Source: Escherichia coli
Lineage (GTDB): Bacteria; Pseudomonadota; Gammaproteobacteria; Enterobacterales; Enterobacteriaceae
DNA length: 64,000 nt
Strand: one strand, 5' to 3'
NCBI RefSeq assembly: GCF_001677475.2
Contig: NZ_CP012498.1
Shown piece after piece: positions 56,027-62,000 of this stretch (positions are counted from its first letter, which is position 1; the number at the start of each line of letters is the position of its first letter). A program made the position numbers.

Positions 56027-59000
56027 TAAATGTCAGGCTCCGTTATACACAGCCAGTCTGCAGCCATGGTACCGGCAGTGTATTCTGCCGGACAGTCTCC
56101 ACAACTTCCTGTTGTCATTGATTATCCGGCAGCTCTGGCACTTCGCCAGATGTCGATGGTCCATGATGAACTGCCGAAATATCTGCTGGCTCTGGAAGTG
56201 AGTGCCCTGCTCCATTACGTCCGGATCTGCGCCGCAAGATGCTGCTGGCCACACTGTGGAACACCGGTGCGCGCATTAATGAAGCACTGGCGCTGACACG
56301 GGGGGATTTTTCGCTCGTGCCTCCGTATCCGTTTGTGCAGCTTGCGACCCTGAAACAACGGACCGAAAAGACAGCCAGAACGGCAGGAAGATCGCCGGCC
56401 GGTAAGCAGACTCACCGGCTGGTTCCGCTCTCTGATGCCTGGTACGTCAGCCAGCCGCAGACGATGGTGGCAACACTGAAAATCCCCATGGAGCGGCGTA
56501 ACCGTCGCACCGGCAGAACAGAGAAAGTGAGGATCTGGGAAGTGACGGACAGAACAGTCAGGACCTGGATTGGGGAAGCGGTTGCCGCCGCTGCTGCTGA
56601 CGGTGTGACGTTCTCTGTTCCTGTCACACCACATACATTCCGCCACTCCTATGCGATGCATATGCTGTATGCCGGTATTCCACTGAAGGTCCTGCAGAGC
56701 CTGATGGGGCATAAGTCCATCAGCTCAACAGAGGTCTACACGAAGGTGTTTGCACTGGATGTGGCTGTACGGCACCGGGTGCAGTTTGCGATGCCTGAGT
56801 CCGATGCAGTGTCTATGCTCAAAAGAATTCCTTAAGTTCTGACTTTTTTAAATCCCTTTCGGATATCTCATGGATATATTATCGGTATTTCATATTCTGT
56901 TGACATGCCGGACTGGTATAGAGTAAAAAAACATCTGTTGAGTACCTCTTGGATATCCGAAAGATGTCTTTGGGGTTCTTTATGGGTATTACATTTGGAT
57001 TCTGGAGATACACTATGCCTGTTATTGCTAATACGCATCCCAAAGGTGGTGTGGGTAAGACAACTTCATCCGTAAACATTGTTGGTGAAATGAAGTCTGA
57101 TACAGTTGATCTGGATACTCATACTGGGCTTTCTATCATTCTGGGGCTGAGACCTGAAGGAAAAGAAATTTCCGTGAAAGTACCCAAAACAGTGGATGAG
57201 TTAATCGAAATTATGACTCCCTACAAGAACAGCGATAAGACGTTACTTATTGACTGTGGGGGATTTGACTCAGATCTTACCCGTACTGCGATTGCCTTTG
57301 CAGACTGCGTTATTGTCCCTTCAAAAGATTCCCTGACTGAGCGTATTGGTTTGATGCATTTTGATGGAGTACTGGACGAAATCAGCTCTATCATGGGGAC
57401 CGATATAATTGCTCACCTGTATCTCTGTAAAGTTAATCCTAACAAGAAGAAATTCCCTAAGCTTGATGCAATCCTGCCATCGTTCAAACATCTGAAGCTG
57501 ATGAAGAGCCGCATTTCTGCTCGTGCAGAATTTGAGGATGTCATTGAGACTGGGATGGGAATCACTGAGTCTGTTCATGGGCGCTATTCGGCAGGAGGTA
57601 AGGAAGTTATTGCCCTGATCGAAGAAATCAATCATCTGATTGAAAATAATAAACAGTAAGGTATATCAATTGGGTATCCATATAGTATCCTTTAGGCTTT
57701 TAATAGATATCTTTTGAGTATCTAACAAACATCCTGGGTTATCTCATGAGCAAAGCGAAATTTAGTGCACAGGCTGAAAAACTGAAAAACCTGGTGGATT
57801 CTGCCAGATTACAAACTTCTTCTTCTGCCGTAATAGCAACAGTCCCGTCTCAGCCAAATGAAGGTGCAGAGGAAGTTTCAGGTCGTCCCGTAGCTGCCAG
57901 GACGAAGGCTAAGAATCTTAAGGCCATACCGCTGTCGTATTTTGAAGCTCATGCGGAACTTAAAGCGACCAGTAAAACATCTCTGGATTTTAGCTCATAT
58001 ATTATTGAGGCTATAAGAGAGAAGCTTGAACGTGACGGTGCAATAGGTCAATAATTCATAGGATACCTTTAGGGTATCTGATGGGTGTCTTTTAAATGCG
58101 TTATGGGGATTCTTCAGGTACCTAAAGAGTCCTCATTAGACATCTTTCTGTATATGGTGACATGATTCGTCACCGCTTTCCTTTCCTCTCAGTTTCACCA
58201 TTTCATTCCTTTTCCCTTAACCTGAACCATGATGTCAAAGATGTTTTTATATTGCATTTATGTATCACATATAACCTTCATAATATTTTTGTATCTATGA
58301 TTTCCTCTGGTCTTAAAGTTGTGTGTACAATATACATGCAATTTATCGTGTTTTTATGTTGCATTTGTCCTTTCAGAAAGACCATTTTTTCATTATAATT
58401 GAATATAAATTGTATGTATGAAGTATGTTTGTTTTTTCTATTTGTTTATGAGCAACGGAGACTGGTTATGAAAATCTTTATTGATGATGGTTCTACCAAC
58501 ATTAAACTTGCCTGGTTGGAGGATGGTGACGTGAAAACGCTAATCAGCCCTAACAGCTTTAAACCGGAATGGTCTTTTAGTTTACTGGATGATGCTGCCC
58601 CGGCTAATTACGAGATCGACGGCGAGAAGTTTTCATTTGATCCATTAAGTGCTGATGCTGTCGTAACGACTGAAACACGCTATCAGTACAGTGATGTGAA
58701 TGTTGTGGCCATTCAGCATGCGCTACAGCAGACCGGCCTGAAAGCGCAGCCTGTTGATGTCATCGTCACATTGCCGATCTCTGAATACCTTGACGCCAAC
58801 AATCAGAAAAATAAGCAAAACATTGAAAGAAAGAAAAAAAATGTGATGCGTGAAGTACGGGTGCAGGGGAGTGATGCATTTGTTATTCGCAGTGTTTCCG
58901 TTCTTCCTGAAAGTATTCCCGCTGGTTTCAGTGTTCTTGCGGGGCTTGAGGATGATGAATCCCTTTTGATCGTAGATCTCGGTGGTACAACTCTTGATGT

Positions 59001-62000
59001 GTCGCATGTTCGTAGCAAAATGACAGGGATTACAAAAACCTGGTGTGATCCGAATATCGGCGTGTCCCTGATTACATCCGGGGTTAAGGAACAGATGGCT
59101 GTACATGCTAATACAAGAGTGAGCTCATTCCAGGCTGACAATATCATTGTGCACCGTAATGAACCTGACTACCTTTCCCGTCGCATTTATAATGCTGAAC
59201 AGCGTGAGTCTATCATTAATGTTATCAATGAACGGCAGAAGTTGCTTATTAAACGAGTTAATGATGTCATCAGCCGTTTCACCGACTATACACATGTAAT
59301 GTGTGTTGGTGGTGGGGCTGAAATTGTGGCCGAGGCTGTGAAGAACCTGACTAGGGTTCCTGATAAGCGCTTTTATCTGAGCTCATCCCCGCAGTTTGAT
59401 TTAGTCATGGGAATGATAAAAATGAAAGGTGGTGTGATTAATGAGTGATGAAAATAAATCCAGACGCTGCTCATTTGAACTTTTCCCGGATGAACGGACA
59501 GGAGATAAGATAGCAGATGAGCTCATTGCAAATGAAAAACTGAAGGAGCGAGGACGTTTCATGCGCGCGATGTTAGTTACTGGTGCGGCGTTTGCAGCTA
59601 TAGATAAACGTCTTCCTTTGCTGATATCGGAGTTACTGACAGAAAATACGACTCTGGATGATATTAATAAGGTGATTTCCAGCGTAATACCAGGTGCTTT
59701 TTCGGTTGAAAAGAAATTGCTTGAATTACTGGAAAAACAATCTGGTCTCCATACGTCTGTGGATTGTAGTGCTCCTCTTACAGAGCAGAGCCTGGCGAGA
59801 AATGACGGTGAAGACCAGACCAGAAGAAACGCTGAAAATATGTTCGGAGATGACTGAACTAACCCAGCCTGGCCAGGGGAATATCTCGCCATTTAGTTGT
59901 ATAACACTGACTCAACATTTCCCGTTTCATTTGCCATTCAGGGGCGGTTCCTCGCCCCGCAAACCACACTTTCCCTTTTCCCGACTGGTTCAGTTCATCG
60001 AGTGTTTTCATTAACTTTTCACTGTTTTTACGGGGCTGGATTTCATCAAATAATCCCGGCTGCGCTATACCCGATGGTGTGAAATCAGCCAGCATGACTC
60101 CTGCCTTCATATAGCGGTACCCTTCACGCCAGACATGGTTTAACGCTCTGCATGCTGCGGCAATAATGTCCCGGCTGTCCTGTGTGGGGAATGGAAGCTT
60201 TTCCACAGCGGCATTGCTGTAACAGGGGGCTTTCACTGCAAAGGGTGACGTTCATATAAATGTCGCCACCTGCCGGCAATACTGACGCTCCCCACGTAGT
60301 TTCTCTGCGGCCCGCTCTGCATACTGAACAACAGCCTGGTGCATGGCATCTTTGTCTGTGATTCGTTCACCAAAACTGCGACTACAGACAATCTGCTGTT
60401 TTGCCGGTGGTGCTTCTTCCAGGGATATGCAGGACTCGCCGTTGAGTTCGCGTACCGTACGCTCAAGAATGACGCTGAAGTTTTTCCGGATGAATGCCGT
60501 GTTCGCCTGCGCCAGCTGCAGTGCTGTGTTAATACCCAGCGCATTCAGCTTTTCCGTCAGTCTGCGTCCTGTTCCCCAGACCTCACCAACTGGCTGCAGC
60601 CCCAGTAGCTTCAAGATCCGATTACGGTTTTCTGTTGTCAGCGCGACCACACCGGAAAACTGCGGCCATTGCTTTGTTGCCCACTGTGCACTTTTAGCCA
60701 GCGTTTTTGTAGGCGCAATGCCCACCCCCATGGTGAGTGTTCCCTGAGCTGATGACCAAAAACCTCCGGAGAGATGCAATGATTTATCCCCCGCAAATCA
60801 ATGAATCGCCCCGGTTTTCCTGGAGAATGTTTTATCTGTGCACACGGATACTGGGTGTAAAAGAGTTCGGGTGTGATAACCCGGACTGTCATCACGTAAA
60901 GTACCTGACCTGCTCATGCGGCAGCCGTGCCTGCCCGTCCTGCGGAAAGACGGCAACAGACCTGATCTTACCCAGCAATAGTGGACACGCAGCTAAGTGA
61001 GTAAACTTTCAGTCAGAGGTGACTCACATGACAAAAACAGTATCAACCAGCAAAAAAACACGTAAACAGCATTCGCCTGAATTTCGCAGTGAAGCCCTGA
61101 AGTATTCAGGTCACTTACAGTACCACTCACTCTCATGTATACATATATATGAAATTACAATTTCAATGATATATATCATAAAAACCTATGTCAGATTAAG
61201 TTATAATCTTACTCTAAAGTTCAGAAATAAACATGGAAAACATACAGATAAATATGGAAAATATATTTAAGTTTTCTCAAACTGAATTCATAAAGTCTCA
61301 ACATACAGACAGAAGCATATATAATGGATTATGTTTTTTTATGTGTATTGATTATATATATAACAAATTAAACGACATAAAGTGTGATTTCATTTTTTTT
61401 AGCAAGACATATGCATTTTCCTCAAGATACAGAGGAATGTTACTTGCATATGAAAGCGGAACCATTAAAGACCCATACTTAATAAAAAACGGAAAGATAC
61501 ACCTAAAAAAATAAAAGGGGATGTAAATCCTGTTGAACTCTATAATATAAAGGATGATTCTTATATTATTAATTTATCTCTTTCAAATGGTACAATGTCA
61601 CATACTACAGCATTTATAAAAAATGGTCGGCATTCTTTATTCTTTGATCCAAATTTTGGTGAATATCTTGTAGGAAATAAGATGGAGCTTATAAACTTTT
61701 TAAAACAGAAATATAAAGGTTATTATAATTTAGATAATATATCACTATATTCGGCTAAATCCATTGATGGACGGAGAATACTGAACAGTAACTGTTGACG
61801 GCAATCACATAGTTTCAGCTTGGCTGACGTCGATATTCCCTTGGTGGAGCCTGTACATAGATTTGTGTAATTGCCTGATTTTGATATGTTCAATCCAGCA
61901 TCAAATGAAGGTTAATTTATGGACGAAAAACAGTTACAGGCTCTGGCTAACGAACTGGCCAAAAACCTCAAAACCCCTGAAGACCTCAGTCAGTTTGATC

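What the first reader, a model, noticed from the sequence alone, without database searches (positions are those of the whole stretch)
56850..59857. Double partition locus: ParA/ParB-type and ParM/ParR-type systems side by side
Seen in sequence: a small Walker-type ParA (214 aa) with a ~100-aa partner, flanked upstream and downstream by GGATAT/ATATCC-type repeat clusters, followed by an actin-like ParM/ParR pair. Established knowledge: this resembles the double par locus I recall from the EPEC plasmid pB171. Here both systems are on the same strand with repeats at three positions.
Basis: partly seen in the sequence, partly recalled or inferred. Interest (0 to 1): 0.35.

Follow-up and report, generated by a model that had tools for sequence, protein, structure and literature searches.

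The report
Tandem double plasmid-partition locus (IncI type)
This stretch carries two plasmid-segregation systems in tandem, a small ParA ATPase with a small DNA-binding partner and three repeat arrays, then an actin-like ParM/ParR pair; it is real but ordinary, because the same 3-kb module sits in over a thousand sequenced enterobacterial plasmids.

Summary
Window 56860-59857 holds, all on the + strand:
- parA (214 aa, deviant Walker A KGGVGKT)
- a 102-aa partner
- parM (326 aa, E 1e-103 to R1 ParM)
- parR (138 aa, PF10784)

About 26 phased 11-bp units (consensus TGGRTATCTTW) form arrays at three positions: upstream of parA, between parA and its partner, and downstream of the partner.

The pB171 comparison holds only for type composition (type Ib plus type II) and backbone position (after ccdAB-resD). 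The proteins are not pB171 orthologues: identities are 20%, none detectable, 37% and 30%. The operons are tandem rather than divergent, and there is no shared central parC1.

The module is the IncI-complex backbone unit resD-yefA-yegA-parA-parB-impB. It occurs at 95% identity or more in about 1075 PLSDB plasmids, here embedded in an IncF enterohaemolysin plasmid.

Modest new points:
- The small partner (YegA) has no Pfam or NCBIfam family and is widely mislabelled "GroEL".
- Divergent homologues that lack parMR keep the three-array layout, with 11/22-bp phasing and repeat sequences that differ between loci. This marks YegA as the centromere binder.
- An array between parA and parB is absent from the pB171-type and pESBL loci examined.

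I found no experimental study of this type Ib half. Function is inferred. Low interest.

The parts
56860..56892 (+). Upstream distal iterons: 3 units of 11 bp (CGGATATCTCA, TGGATATATTA, TCGGTATTTCA).
   Evidence: In-register listing with 8-9 of 11 matches to the consensus. Part of the 'up' region with lag-11 p<0.001.
56899..56928 (+). Putative parA promoter, TTGACA-18 nt-TAAAAA, lying between the distal and proximal iterons.
   Evidence: Read from the sequence. The same TTGACt-18-TAAAAA design is seen upstream of the Klebsiella homologue L006. The consensus scan did not report it because it requires T at position 6 of the -10 hexamer. Inferred.
56939..57014 (+). Upstream proximal iteron array: about 6 units with small register slips, running into the RBS of parA.
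   Evidence: (D1 reference copy 56943-56990).
57015..57659 (+). parA (= IncI yefA): 214-aa deviant Walker-A ATPase of the small, type Ib size class.
   Evidence: KGGVGKT; K10, K15, D34 and D80 are invariant across 7 ParAs. Pfam AAA_31 and MipZ. NCBIfam ParA_partition matches full length at 52 bits, below the cut-off of 180. RefSeq calls it 'ParA family protein'.
57660..57745 (+). Intergenic iteron array between parA and its partner: 8 units at an 11-bp period, the 4th degenerate.
   Evidence: Five forward PWM hits. A spacer of 56-95 bp with 11/22-bp periodicity is also present in homologues L006, L007 and L009, and in the more remote L012 (43 bp). In L008 the best lag is 13, with 22 second.
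57746..58054 (+). parB-like centromere-binding protein candidate (= IncI yegA): 102 aa. Conserved N-terminal helix, variable disordered linker, conserved C-terminal domain of about 45 aa.
   Evidence: No Pfam or NCBIfam hit. Family alignments. AF2 secondary structure. Always found directly downstream of a ParA of about 210 aa.
58060..58147 (+). Downstream iteron array: 8 units at an 11-bp period, the 4th and 7th degenerate.
   Evidence: A comparable array follows parB in L006, L007, L008 and L009, which lack parMR, so it belongs to the parAB module.
58155..58175 (+). Weak hairpin (7-bp stem) followed by a T/C-rich tract. Possible end of the parAB transcript.
   Evidence: Terminator-like hit. 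Folding gives -9.2 kcal/mol, z = -1.8, which is modest.
58225..58467 (+). Putative parC and parM promoter region: AT-rich, with TTGCAT/ATGCAA and TGTATG repeats. Promoter-like TTCAGA-16-TATAAT at 58372-58399.
   Evidence: Direct family D2 and inverted pairs I1, I6 and I10. Lag-11 p 0.006 but best-lag p 0.074. Local lag-11 peaks. Promoter scan. ParR binding is inferred by analogy with R1 and pB171 parC.
58468..59448 (+). parM (annotated 'parA' in IncI records): 326-aa actin-like segregation ATPase.
   Evidence: PF06406 at 274 bits and PF21523 at 241 bits. E 1e-103 to R1 ParM structures 1MWK and 4A62.
59441..59857 (+). parR (annotated 'parB' in IncI records): 138-aa adaptor.
   Evidence: PF10784 at 96.6 bits. 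E 2e-6 to pB171 ParR 2JD3. 30% identical to pB171-type ParR.

Best explanation
This is a tandem double partition locus, the conserved IncI-complex backbone module resD-yefA-yegA-parA-parB-impB, carried here on a large IncF enterohaemolysin plasmid.

System 1 is type Ib.
- YegA dimers bind the roughly 26 helically phased 11-bp iterons (TGGRTATCTTW) in three arrays. This is inferred.
- The upstream array brackets the parA promoter. It would therefore act as both operator (autorepression) and centromere.
- The arrays between parA and yegA, and downstream of yegA, add centromere sites. The intergenic array may also adjust the ParB:ParA ratio.
- The conserved N-terminal helix of YegA would contact ParA-ATP on the nucleoid and stimulate its ATPase. 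Plasmid copies would then be spaced along the nucleoid by the ParA-gradient (diffusion-ratchet) mechanism.

System 2 is type II. ParR binds parC around the parM promoter, and ParM-ATP filaments captured at both ends push sister plasmids apart.

Shown here: gene identities, repeat arrays and their phasing, linkage of the two modules, and conservation of the three-array layout. Inferred: all DNA binding, regulation and segregation activity.
For: Gene identities:
- ParA has deviant Walker A, A' and B residues.
- ParM and ParR match their families and solved structures strongly.

Repeats:
- Three related arrays with an 11-bp period.
- Strong enrichment in spacers over coding sequence.

Homologues:
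- Five parA-yegA loci of 36-70% YegA identity (window, L006-L009) all have arrays at the same three positions.
- Lag 11 or 22 is the best of 18 lags in 11 of the 12 homologue arrays.
- The repeat words differ between loci: GGTATCT, TGTCTTA, TGTATAT, GGATTCC. This is expected if YegA reads them.
- YegA relatives always follow a ParA of about 210 aa.

YegA structure:
- Predicted as N-terminal helix, disordered linker, extended segment, then two helices.
- The wider family has a G-K-T-S turn.
- It aligns with Arc repressor in the expected strand/helix register, weakly (E 0.024).

Linkage and precedent:
- 1107 plasmids carry the parAB part, 1078 the parMR part and 1075 the whole unit.
- IncI records annotate yefA, parA and parB as partitioning proteins.
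- A different type Ib system in the same slot of IncI plasmid pESBL was shown experimentally to be a partition locus with repeat arrays on both sides (PMC7602700).
Against: - No experiment on this yefA/yegA system was found in the held literature.
- The iteron PWM is weak and has many hits elsewhere in the window.
- No clear promoter is found for yegA in the intergenic array, and the parA promoter is only a hand-read candidate.
- The parC iterons for ParR are not defined (best-lag p 0.074).
- Whether both systems are active in this host is unknown. In SCP1, another dual-system plasmid, one system dominates (PMC13245405).
Confidence: 0.85

Rival explanations
1. It is a rearranged (inverted) copy of the pB171 par1/par2 locus itself, so it shares that locus's specificity and cross-regulation.
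For: Same type combination. Same position after ccdAB-resD, with ResD 93% identical.
Against: Protein identities are only 20% (ParA), none (ParB), 37% (ParM) and 30% (ParR). In the pB171-type locus parA and parB overlap and there is no intergenic array. The repeat words are unrelated.
Confidence: 0.02
2. The ParA/YegA pair is not a segregation system. YegA would be only a transcriptional repressor acting on iterated operators, and the ATPase would serve another role (for example conjugation-related positioning). ParMRC would then be the sole partition system.
For: YegA has no recognised family or demonstrated fold. The upstream array overlaps a likely promoter. IncI records name only the ParM/ParR pair parA/parB.
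Against: The same parA-yegA-arrays cassette is the only recognisable par cassette in the 7-kb regions examined on plasmids without parMR: Klebsiella IncFII, Yersinia, Pantoea and a 43-kb E. coli plasmid. Arrays downstream of the operon have no obvious operator role. The architecture (ATPase of about 210 aa, small partner, flanking arrays) matches the experimentally proven pESBL and pB171 par2 systems (PMC7602700).
Confidence: 0.08
3. Both systems are present but only one works in this plasmid. The other is a decaying passenger of an IncI-derived fragment that was captured between IS elements.
For: The flanking backbone genes are decayed: resD is frameshifted and impB/umuC is frameshifted and truncated in the window and its closest relatives. 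The host plasmid is IncFIA/FIB and may carry its own partition genes, which I did not check. One system dominates in SCP1, another dual-system plasmid.
Against: All four par ORFs are intact. The protein accessions are shared with relatives, and the region is 99.5% identical to the best matches. The arrays are intact.
Confidence: 0.25

Closest known systems
pB171 double par locus (par1 = parMRC type II; par2 = parABC type Ib)
   Same: - One type Ib and one type II system are adjacent.
- The type Ib system has repeat arrays both upstream and downstream.
- Both loci lie directly after ccdAB-resD.
   Different: - The operons are tandem, not divergent, and there is no shared central parC1.
- An extra array lies between parA and the partner gene, whereas pB171 parA and parB overlap.
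- Proteins are 20%, 0%, 37% and 30% identical.
- Iterons are phased at 11 bp, against the 6-bp ParB repeats of pB171. That last figure is from my memory of Ringgaard et al. 2007 and was not checked here.
pESBL (IncI1, E. coli O104:H4) ParABS, type Ib (PMC7602700)
   Same: - ParA of about 208 aa plus a partner of about 100 aa with no known family.
- Repeat arrays on both sides of the operon.
- Same backbone slot next to impB in an IncI plasmid.
- Partition function was shown by Tn-seq, mini-F stabilisation, GFP foci and EMSA.
   Different: - ParA is 24% identical.
- The repeat is an octamer with a different word.
- parA and parB overlap.
- The cassette is in the opposite orientation.
- No ParMR lies beside it.
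R1/R100 ParMRC (type II)
   Same: - ParM aligns end to end with R1 ParM (E 1e-103).
- ParR belongs to the Plasmid_stab_B family.
- The upstream region is AT-rich and repeat-bearing, with a promoter-like site.
   Different: - parC iterons are not clearly defined here.
- ParR is longer (138 aa).
- The system sits immediately after another par system.
pSM19035 delta/omega (type Ib with RHH omega)
   Same: Several separate repeat arrays, including one directly upstream of the gene for the centromere-binding protein, that is, between the ATPase gene and the binder gene. This is from my own knowledge and was not tested here.
   Different: - The repeats are 7-bp heptads, not 11-bp units.
- The host is Gram-positive.
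- I expect no detectable sequence relation, but did not test this.
- Omega also regulates copy number and a toxin-antitoxin system.
TP228 ParF/ParG/parH
   Same: Small ParA. Small partner with a flexible N-terminal tail and a C-terminal DNA-binding domain.
   Different: hhalign of the YegA family against ParG is not significant. TP228 has a single upstream site. ParF gave no PDB sequence match to this ParA.
R27 (IncHI1) double partitioning modules
   Same: Two adjacent functional par modules, one of them of ParM/ParR type (cited in PMC13245405).
   Different: The partner module in R27 is a different type I system. It was not compared here.

Membership tests
Type Ib (small ParA plus small non-HTH binder) partition system | ParA of about 200-230 aa with a deviant Walker A motif (signature lysine) and no N-terminal HTH extension. 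| tested here: met
   214 aa; KGGVGKT with K10 and K15; D34 and D80 conserved.
Type Ib (small ParA plus small non-HTH binder) partition system | Small centromere-binding protein encoded directly downstream of parA. | tested here: met
   102 aa, 86 bp after parA. The same order is seen in 8 other loci.
Type Ib (small ParA plus small non-HTH binder) partition system | The binder has a ribbon-helix-helix fold. | tested here: inconclusive
Type Ib (small ParA plus small non-HTH binder) partition system | Arrays of short repeats next to the operon that serve as centromere and operator. | tested here: met
   Three arrays with an 11-bp period, above the shuffle controls, conserved in position among homologues. 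Binding itself was not tested.
Type Ib (small ParA plus small non-HTH binder) partition system | Stabilises a low-copy replicon; the binder binds the repeats; the binder stimulates the ParA ATPase. | not testable with these tools
   Needs stability assays, EMSA or ChIP, and ATPase assays.
Type II ParMRC | Actin-like ParM ATPase. | tested here: met
   PF06406 and PF21523. E 1e-103 to R1 ParM structures over residues 1-317.
Type II ParMRC | ParR adaptor encoded directly downstream of parM. | tested here: met
   PF10784 at 96.6 bits. Matches pB171 ParR 2JD3. The genes overlap by 8 nt.
Type II ParMRC | parC iterons upstream of parM, overlapping its promoter. | tested here: inconclusive
   The AT-rich region has direct and inverted repeats and a promoter-like site. 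The periodicity is weak (lag-11 p 0.006, best-lag p 0.074).
pB171 par1/par2 double locus | Divergent operons either side of a central region (parC1). | tested here: not met
   Both operons here are on the + strand. In the pB171-type locus L005 they are divergent around a 228-bp region. That the central region is shared by both systems in pB171 is from memory, not tested here.
pB171 par1/par2 double locus | Orthologous proteins. | tested here: not met
   20%, none, 37% and 30% identity.
pB171 par1/par2 double locus | Type Ib and type II systems adjacent, downstream of ccdAB-resD. | tested here: met
IncI-complex backbone module resD-yefA-yegA-parA-parB-impB | Near-identical sequence and the same gene order. 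| tested here: met
   98.4% identity over 3061 nt to IncI1/B/O and IncI-gamma/K plasmids with this gene order. 1075 plasmids carry the whole unit.

The most novel reading that the evidence does not exclude
YefA/YegA may be an uncharacterised lineage of type Ib partition systems. Its hallmark would be a tripartite centromere of helically phased 11-bp iterons, including an array inside the operon between parA and the binder gene. In the IncI tandem arrangement, its downstream centromere lies about 100-300 bp from the parC of ParMRC. The two systems could therefore form a composite centromere or cross-regulate, as par1 and par2 do in pB171, but in a head-to-tail geometry.
Probability: 0.3. Interest if true: 0.4.

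Novelty: already known. Interest (0 to 1): 0.17.

Why it matters
Practically, this 3-kb unit is part of the stability backbone of IncI1/B/O/K plasmids, which are major carriers of ESBL and AmpC genes. It also occurs on some large IncF virulence plasmids. Knowing that it holds two mechanistically different segregation machines helps explain their persistence and incompatibility behaviour.

Three small corrections to current annotation follow:
- The 102-aa gene widely labelled "molecular chaperone GroEL" or "hypothetical" is most likely the centromere-binding protein of a type Ib system.
- In at least one IncI-gamma/K record the type labels of yefA and parA/parB are swapped.
- The cis sites (three arrays of 11-bp iterons) are not annotated.

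It does not open a new question for the partition field. Double type Ib plus type II loci are already documented: pB171, and 971 PLSDB plasmids counted in PMC13245405.

Tried and rejected
- **pB171 sequence.** Accessions NC_002142 and AB024946 are not in the collections, and the 2001 PNAS paper (PMC64986) is not held. Instead I used residues 1-82 of the pB171 ParR chain 2JD3, taken, to find a pB171-type locus.
- **pESBL.** I first suspected the characterised pESBL par locus was the same system. It is not: different ParA, different orientation, overlapping genes, octamer repeats.
- **Tandem Repeats Finder.** It sees none of the arrays.
- **PWM built from the middle array.** It is too weak to be specific across the window. 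Enrichment in the other two arrays is real but modest.
- **YegA fold.** All of the following gave nothing usable:
  - Pfam and NCBIfam. The only recurring hit was DUF3950, sub-threshold at E about 0.04-0.09.
  - PDB sequence and profile search.
  - Foldseek on the monomer model.
  - hhalign to ParG and pB171 ParB, not significant.
  - hhalign to Arc was in register but weak.
- **Rfam.** Nothing found in 55.0-61.5 kb.
- **Supplementary tables of PMC13245405.** The held text did not contain the accessions I searched for.
- **Literature.** Searches for yefA/yegA and for IncI1 ParM/ParR found no functional study of this module.

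
Full report
**What is there.** Four genes lie on the + strand of window 56.85-59.86 kb.
- parA, 57015-57659: 214 aa, starting MPVIANTHPKGGVGKTT, with GGAG 7 nt upstream.
- A 102-aa gene, 57746-58054.
- parM, 58468-59448: 326 aa.
- parR, 59441-59857: 138 aa, overlapping parM by 8 nt.

Family matches support these names.
- ParA hits AAA_31 and MipZ in Pfam. It matches NCBIfam ParA_partition over its full length, but below the curated cut-off (52 against 180 bits).
- ParA's only PDB sequence match is the Walker A region of HpSoj. It is a divergent small ParA.
- ParM hits PF06406 and PF21523 and aligns end to end with R1 ParM structures (E 1e-103).
- ParR hits PF10784 and the pB171 ParR structure 2JD3 (E 2e-6).
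- The 102-aa protein has no Pfam, NCBIfam or PDB match.

**The repeats are real.** The repeat finder links three spacers through a 48-nt related block: 56943-56990, 57664-57711 and 58064-58111.
- Written in 11-bp register, the spacers resolve into 26 units with consensus TGGRTATCTTW: 3 distal and about 7 proximal units upstream of parA, 8 between parA and the 102-aa gene, and 8 downstream of it.
- Twenty units match the consensus at 6 of 11 positions or better, against 3.9% of all 11-mers in the window. The consensus comes from these same units, so this is partly circular.
- Lag-11 or lag-22 self-similarity beats shuffles in each cluster (best-lag p 0.001, 0.009, 0.005).
- GGTATCT with at most one mismatch occurs 10 times in about 365 nt of spacer and once in 954 nt of coding sequence.
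- All units point the same way as the genes.
- Tandem Repeats Finder does not detect the arrays. A PWM built from one array is too weak to be specific across the window.

**Other cis features.**
- A perfect -35 hexamer (TTGACA, 56899) followed 18 nt later by TAAAAA lies between the distal and proximal upstream units. The same design appears in the Klebsiella homologue. This is a hand-read candidate that the scan did not report.
- A weak hairpin follows the third array (58155-58175; -9.2 kcal/mol, z = -1.8).
- The 290 bp before parM is AT-rich. It has TTGCAT/ATGCAA and TGTATG repeats and a promoter-like TTCAGA-16-TATAAT at 58372-58399. This is a plausible parC, but its iterons are not well defined.
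- Rfam finds nothing in the region.

**Where the module occurs.**
- Megablast finds the whole 3.06-kb unit at 80% coverage or more in 1075 PLSDB plasmids, almost all at 95-99% identity.
- The parAB part alone is in 1107 plasmids and the parMR part in 1078. The two halves therefore travel together.
- The best matches (99.5%) are IncFIA/FIB enterohaemolysin plasmids of 167-225 kb.
- The bulk of matches (98.4%) are IncI1/B/O and IncI-gamma/K plasmids. There the order is resD, yefA, yegA, parA (= ParM), parB (= ParR), impB.
- In the window and its closest relatives resD is frameshifted and impB/umuC is frameshifted and truncated. The module therefore looks like a captured piece of IncI-type backbone.

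**Comparison with pB171.** The pB171 record and the original paper were not available. I used the 2JD3 ParR sequence to find a pB171-type locus (98.8% match).
- Its layout is ccdA, ccdB, resD, then parB<-parA and parM->parR diverging around a 228-bp region. parA and parB overlap.
- Identities to the window proteins are 20% for ParA, no alignment for ParB, 37% for ParM and 30% for ParR.
- ResD is 93% identical, and 95% identical to the IncI1 copy.
- The same backbone slot between resD and impB therefore holds different par cassettes in different plasmids.
- A third example is IncI1 pESBL-EA11. It carries a single, oppositely oriented type Ib pair (ParA 24% identical) next to impB. That pair was shown experimentally to be a partition locus with octamer repeats on both sides (PMC7602700).

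**The 102-aa protein (YegA).**
- Its family is small. There are 77 clusters at 90% identity in the 5.8-billion-cluster collection, mostly labelled "molecular chaperone GroEL" or unnamed. There are 63 representatives among 1.84 billion.
- Alignments show a conserved N-terminal segment (MSKxKFxEQAEKLKSLVGSARLQTS), a linker of variable length, and a conserved C-terminal domain. The family-wide consensus of that domain is K.K.L..vP..yF.aH..LK..GKTSL.F..YIiEAiREKLERDGal.
- AlphaFold2 predicts an N-terminal helix (6-19), a disordered stretch (26-44), an extended segment and two helices (65-74, 83-96), at mean pLDDT 66.
- A single-chain fused dimer gave short paired strands plus the helices, at pLDDT 61.
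- This layout, the G-x-T/S turn, and an in-register but weak hhalign match to Arc (E 0.024) suggest a ribbon-helix-helix binder.

**Evidence that YegA reads the repeats.** Homologous parA-yegA pairs occur on plasmids without parMR: Klebsiella IncFII (70% YegA identity), Yersinia (49%), Pantoea (36%) and a 43-kb E. coli plasmid (46%).
- All keep a 56-95-bp spacer between the two genes.
- All have arrays upstream, between and downstream. Lag 11 or 22 is the best of 18 lags in 11 of the 12 arrays.
- The repeat words differ between loci: GGTATCT, TGTCTTA, TGTATAT, GGATTCC.
- They differ together with the residues of the predicted strand: IPLSYF, IPETYF, IPEDLW, IPTTYF.
- More remote members (75-76 aa) also follow a 210-aa ParA. 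One of them keeps iterons upstream and in the spacer, and one has no spacer array.
- The intergenic array is absent from the pB171-type and pESBL loci, where the two genes overlap.
- From my own knowledge, the nearest precedent is pSM19035, where a repeat array precedes the omega gene downstream of delta.

**Mechanism (inferred).**
- YegA dimers coat the helically phased iterons. At the upstream array this would repress parA and also build a partition complex. The other two arrays would enlarge the complex.
- The YegA N-terminus would activate nucleoid-bound ParA-ATP, giving gradient-driven spacing of plasmid copies.
- Independently, ParR on parC would cap ParM filaments that push sister plasmids apart.
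- Whether both systems are active, redundant, or host- or condition-specific cannot be told from sequence. In SCP1, another dual-system plasmid, one system dominates (PMC13245405).

**Novelty.**
- Double type Ib plus type II loci are documented. PMC13245405 counts 971 PLSDB plasmids with type I RHH-ParB plus type II, and cites pB171 and R27.
- This exact module is annotated in over a thousand records.
- I found no functional study of the yefA/yegA half.
- The increments here are the assignment of YegA as the likely centromere binder, the 11-bp iteron consensus, and the conserved three-array layout.
- Verdict: a correct observation of an ordinary, already known feature. Low interest.

Noticed in passing
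window 57746-58054, and RefSeq/PLSDB records (e.g. WP_000030204.1): The 102-aa YegA protein is annotated 'molecular chaperone GroEL' in many RefSeq and GenBank records and 'hypothetical protein' in others. It has no similarity to GroEL-sized proteins and no Pfam or NCBIfam family. This looks like a propagated misannotation.
   Followed up: partly
L015 (LC567091.1) 1340-4182: In this IncI-gamma/K record the type labels are swapped. The Walker ATPase yefA is called 'type II bacterial partitioning protein', and the ParM/ParR pair is named parA/parB 'type I plasmid partitioning protein'.
   Followed up: yes
window 56030-56835: The resD site-specific integrase is split into two ORFs (88 aa and 198 aa). 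RefSeq marks it 'frameshifted' in the closest relative. It is 93-95% identical to intact ResD of pB171-type and IncI1 plasmids.
   Followed up: yes
window 59859-60779, minus strand: The impB/umuC (Y-family polymerase) gene is broken into fragments of 125 aa and 175 aa. It is annotated frameshifted and truncated in relatives. Its stop lies 2 nt from the parR stop, as in intact IncI1 plasmids.
   Followed up: partly
window 55492-56029: ccdA and ccdB (a toxin-antitoxin pair) lie directly upstream of resD, as in the pB171-type locus. The closest large-plasmid relatives lose this part to IS elements; their match starts at about window 55968.
   Followed up: partly
window 59695-59900: A 206-bp piece (the last 163 nt of parR plus the junction with impB) is present alone at 97% identity in many IncF plasmids. 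In NZ_CP010141 it lies right after an IS1, between sitABC and RepFIB. This looks like a remnant of the same module cut by IS1.
   Followed up: partly
L004 (pESBL-EA11) 1-920, L005 2883-5393, window 56850-59857: The slot between resD and impB holds three different par contents in related backbones. pESBL has a single inverted type Ib pair. The pB171 type has divergent type Ib and type II operons. The IncI1 type has tandem type Ib and type II operons. This suggests cassette exchange at this position.
   Followed up: partly
window 45697-52820: Four ORFs of 171, 1003, 705 and 479 aa match the enterohaemolysin operon layout (ehxCABD). ehxB and ehxD are annotated at the corresponding place in the best-matching plasmid. 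The window is therefore from a STEC-type large plasmid.
   Followed up: no
window 58162-58398: A 78-aa ORF lies in the spacer between the third iteron array and parM. It is hydrophobic and low-complexity, and is not annotated in any relative. It is probably not a gene.
   Followed up: no
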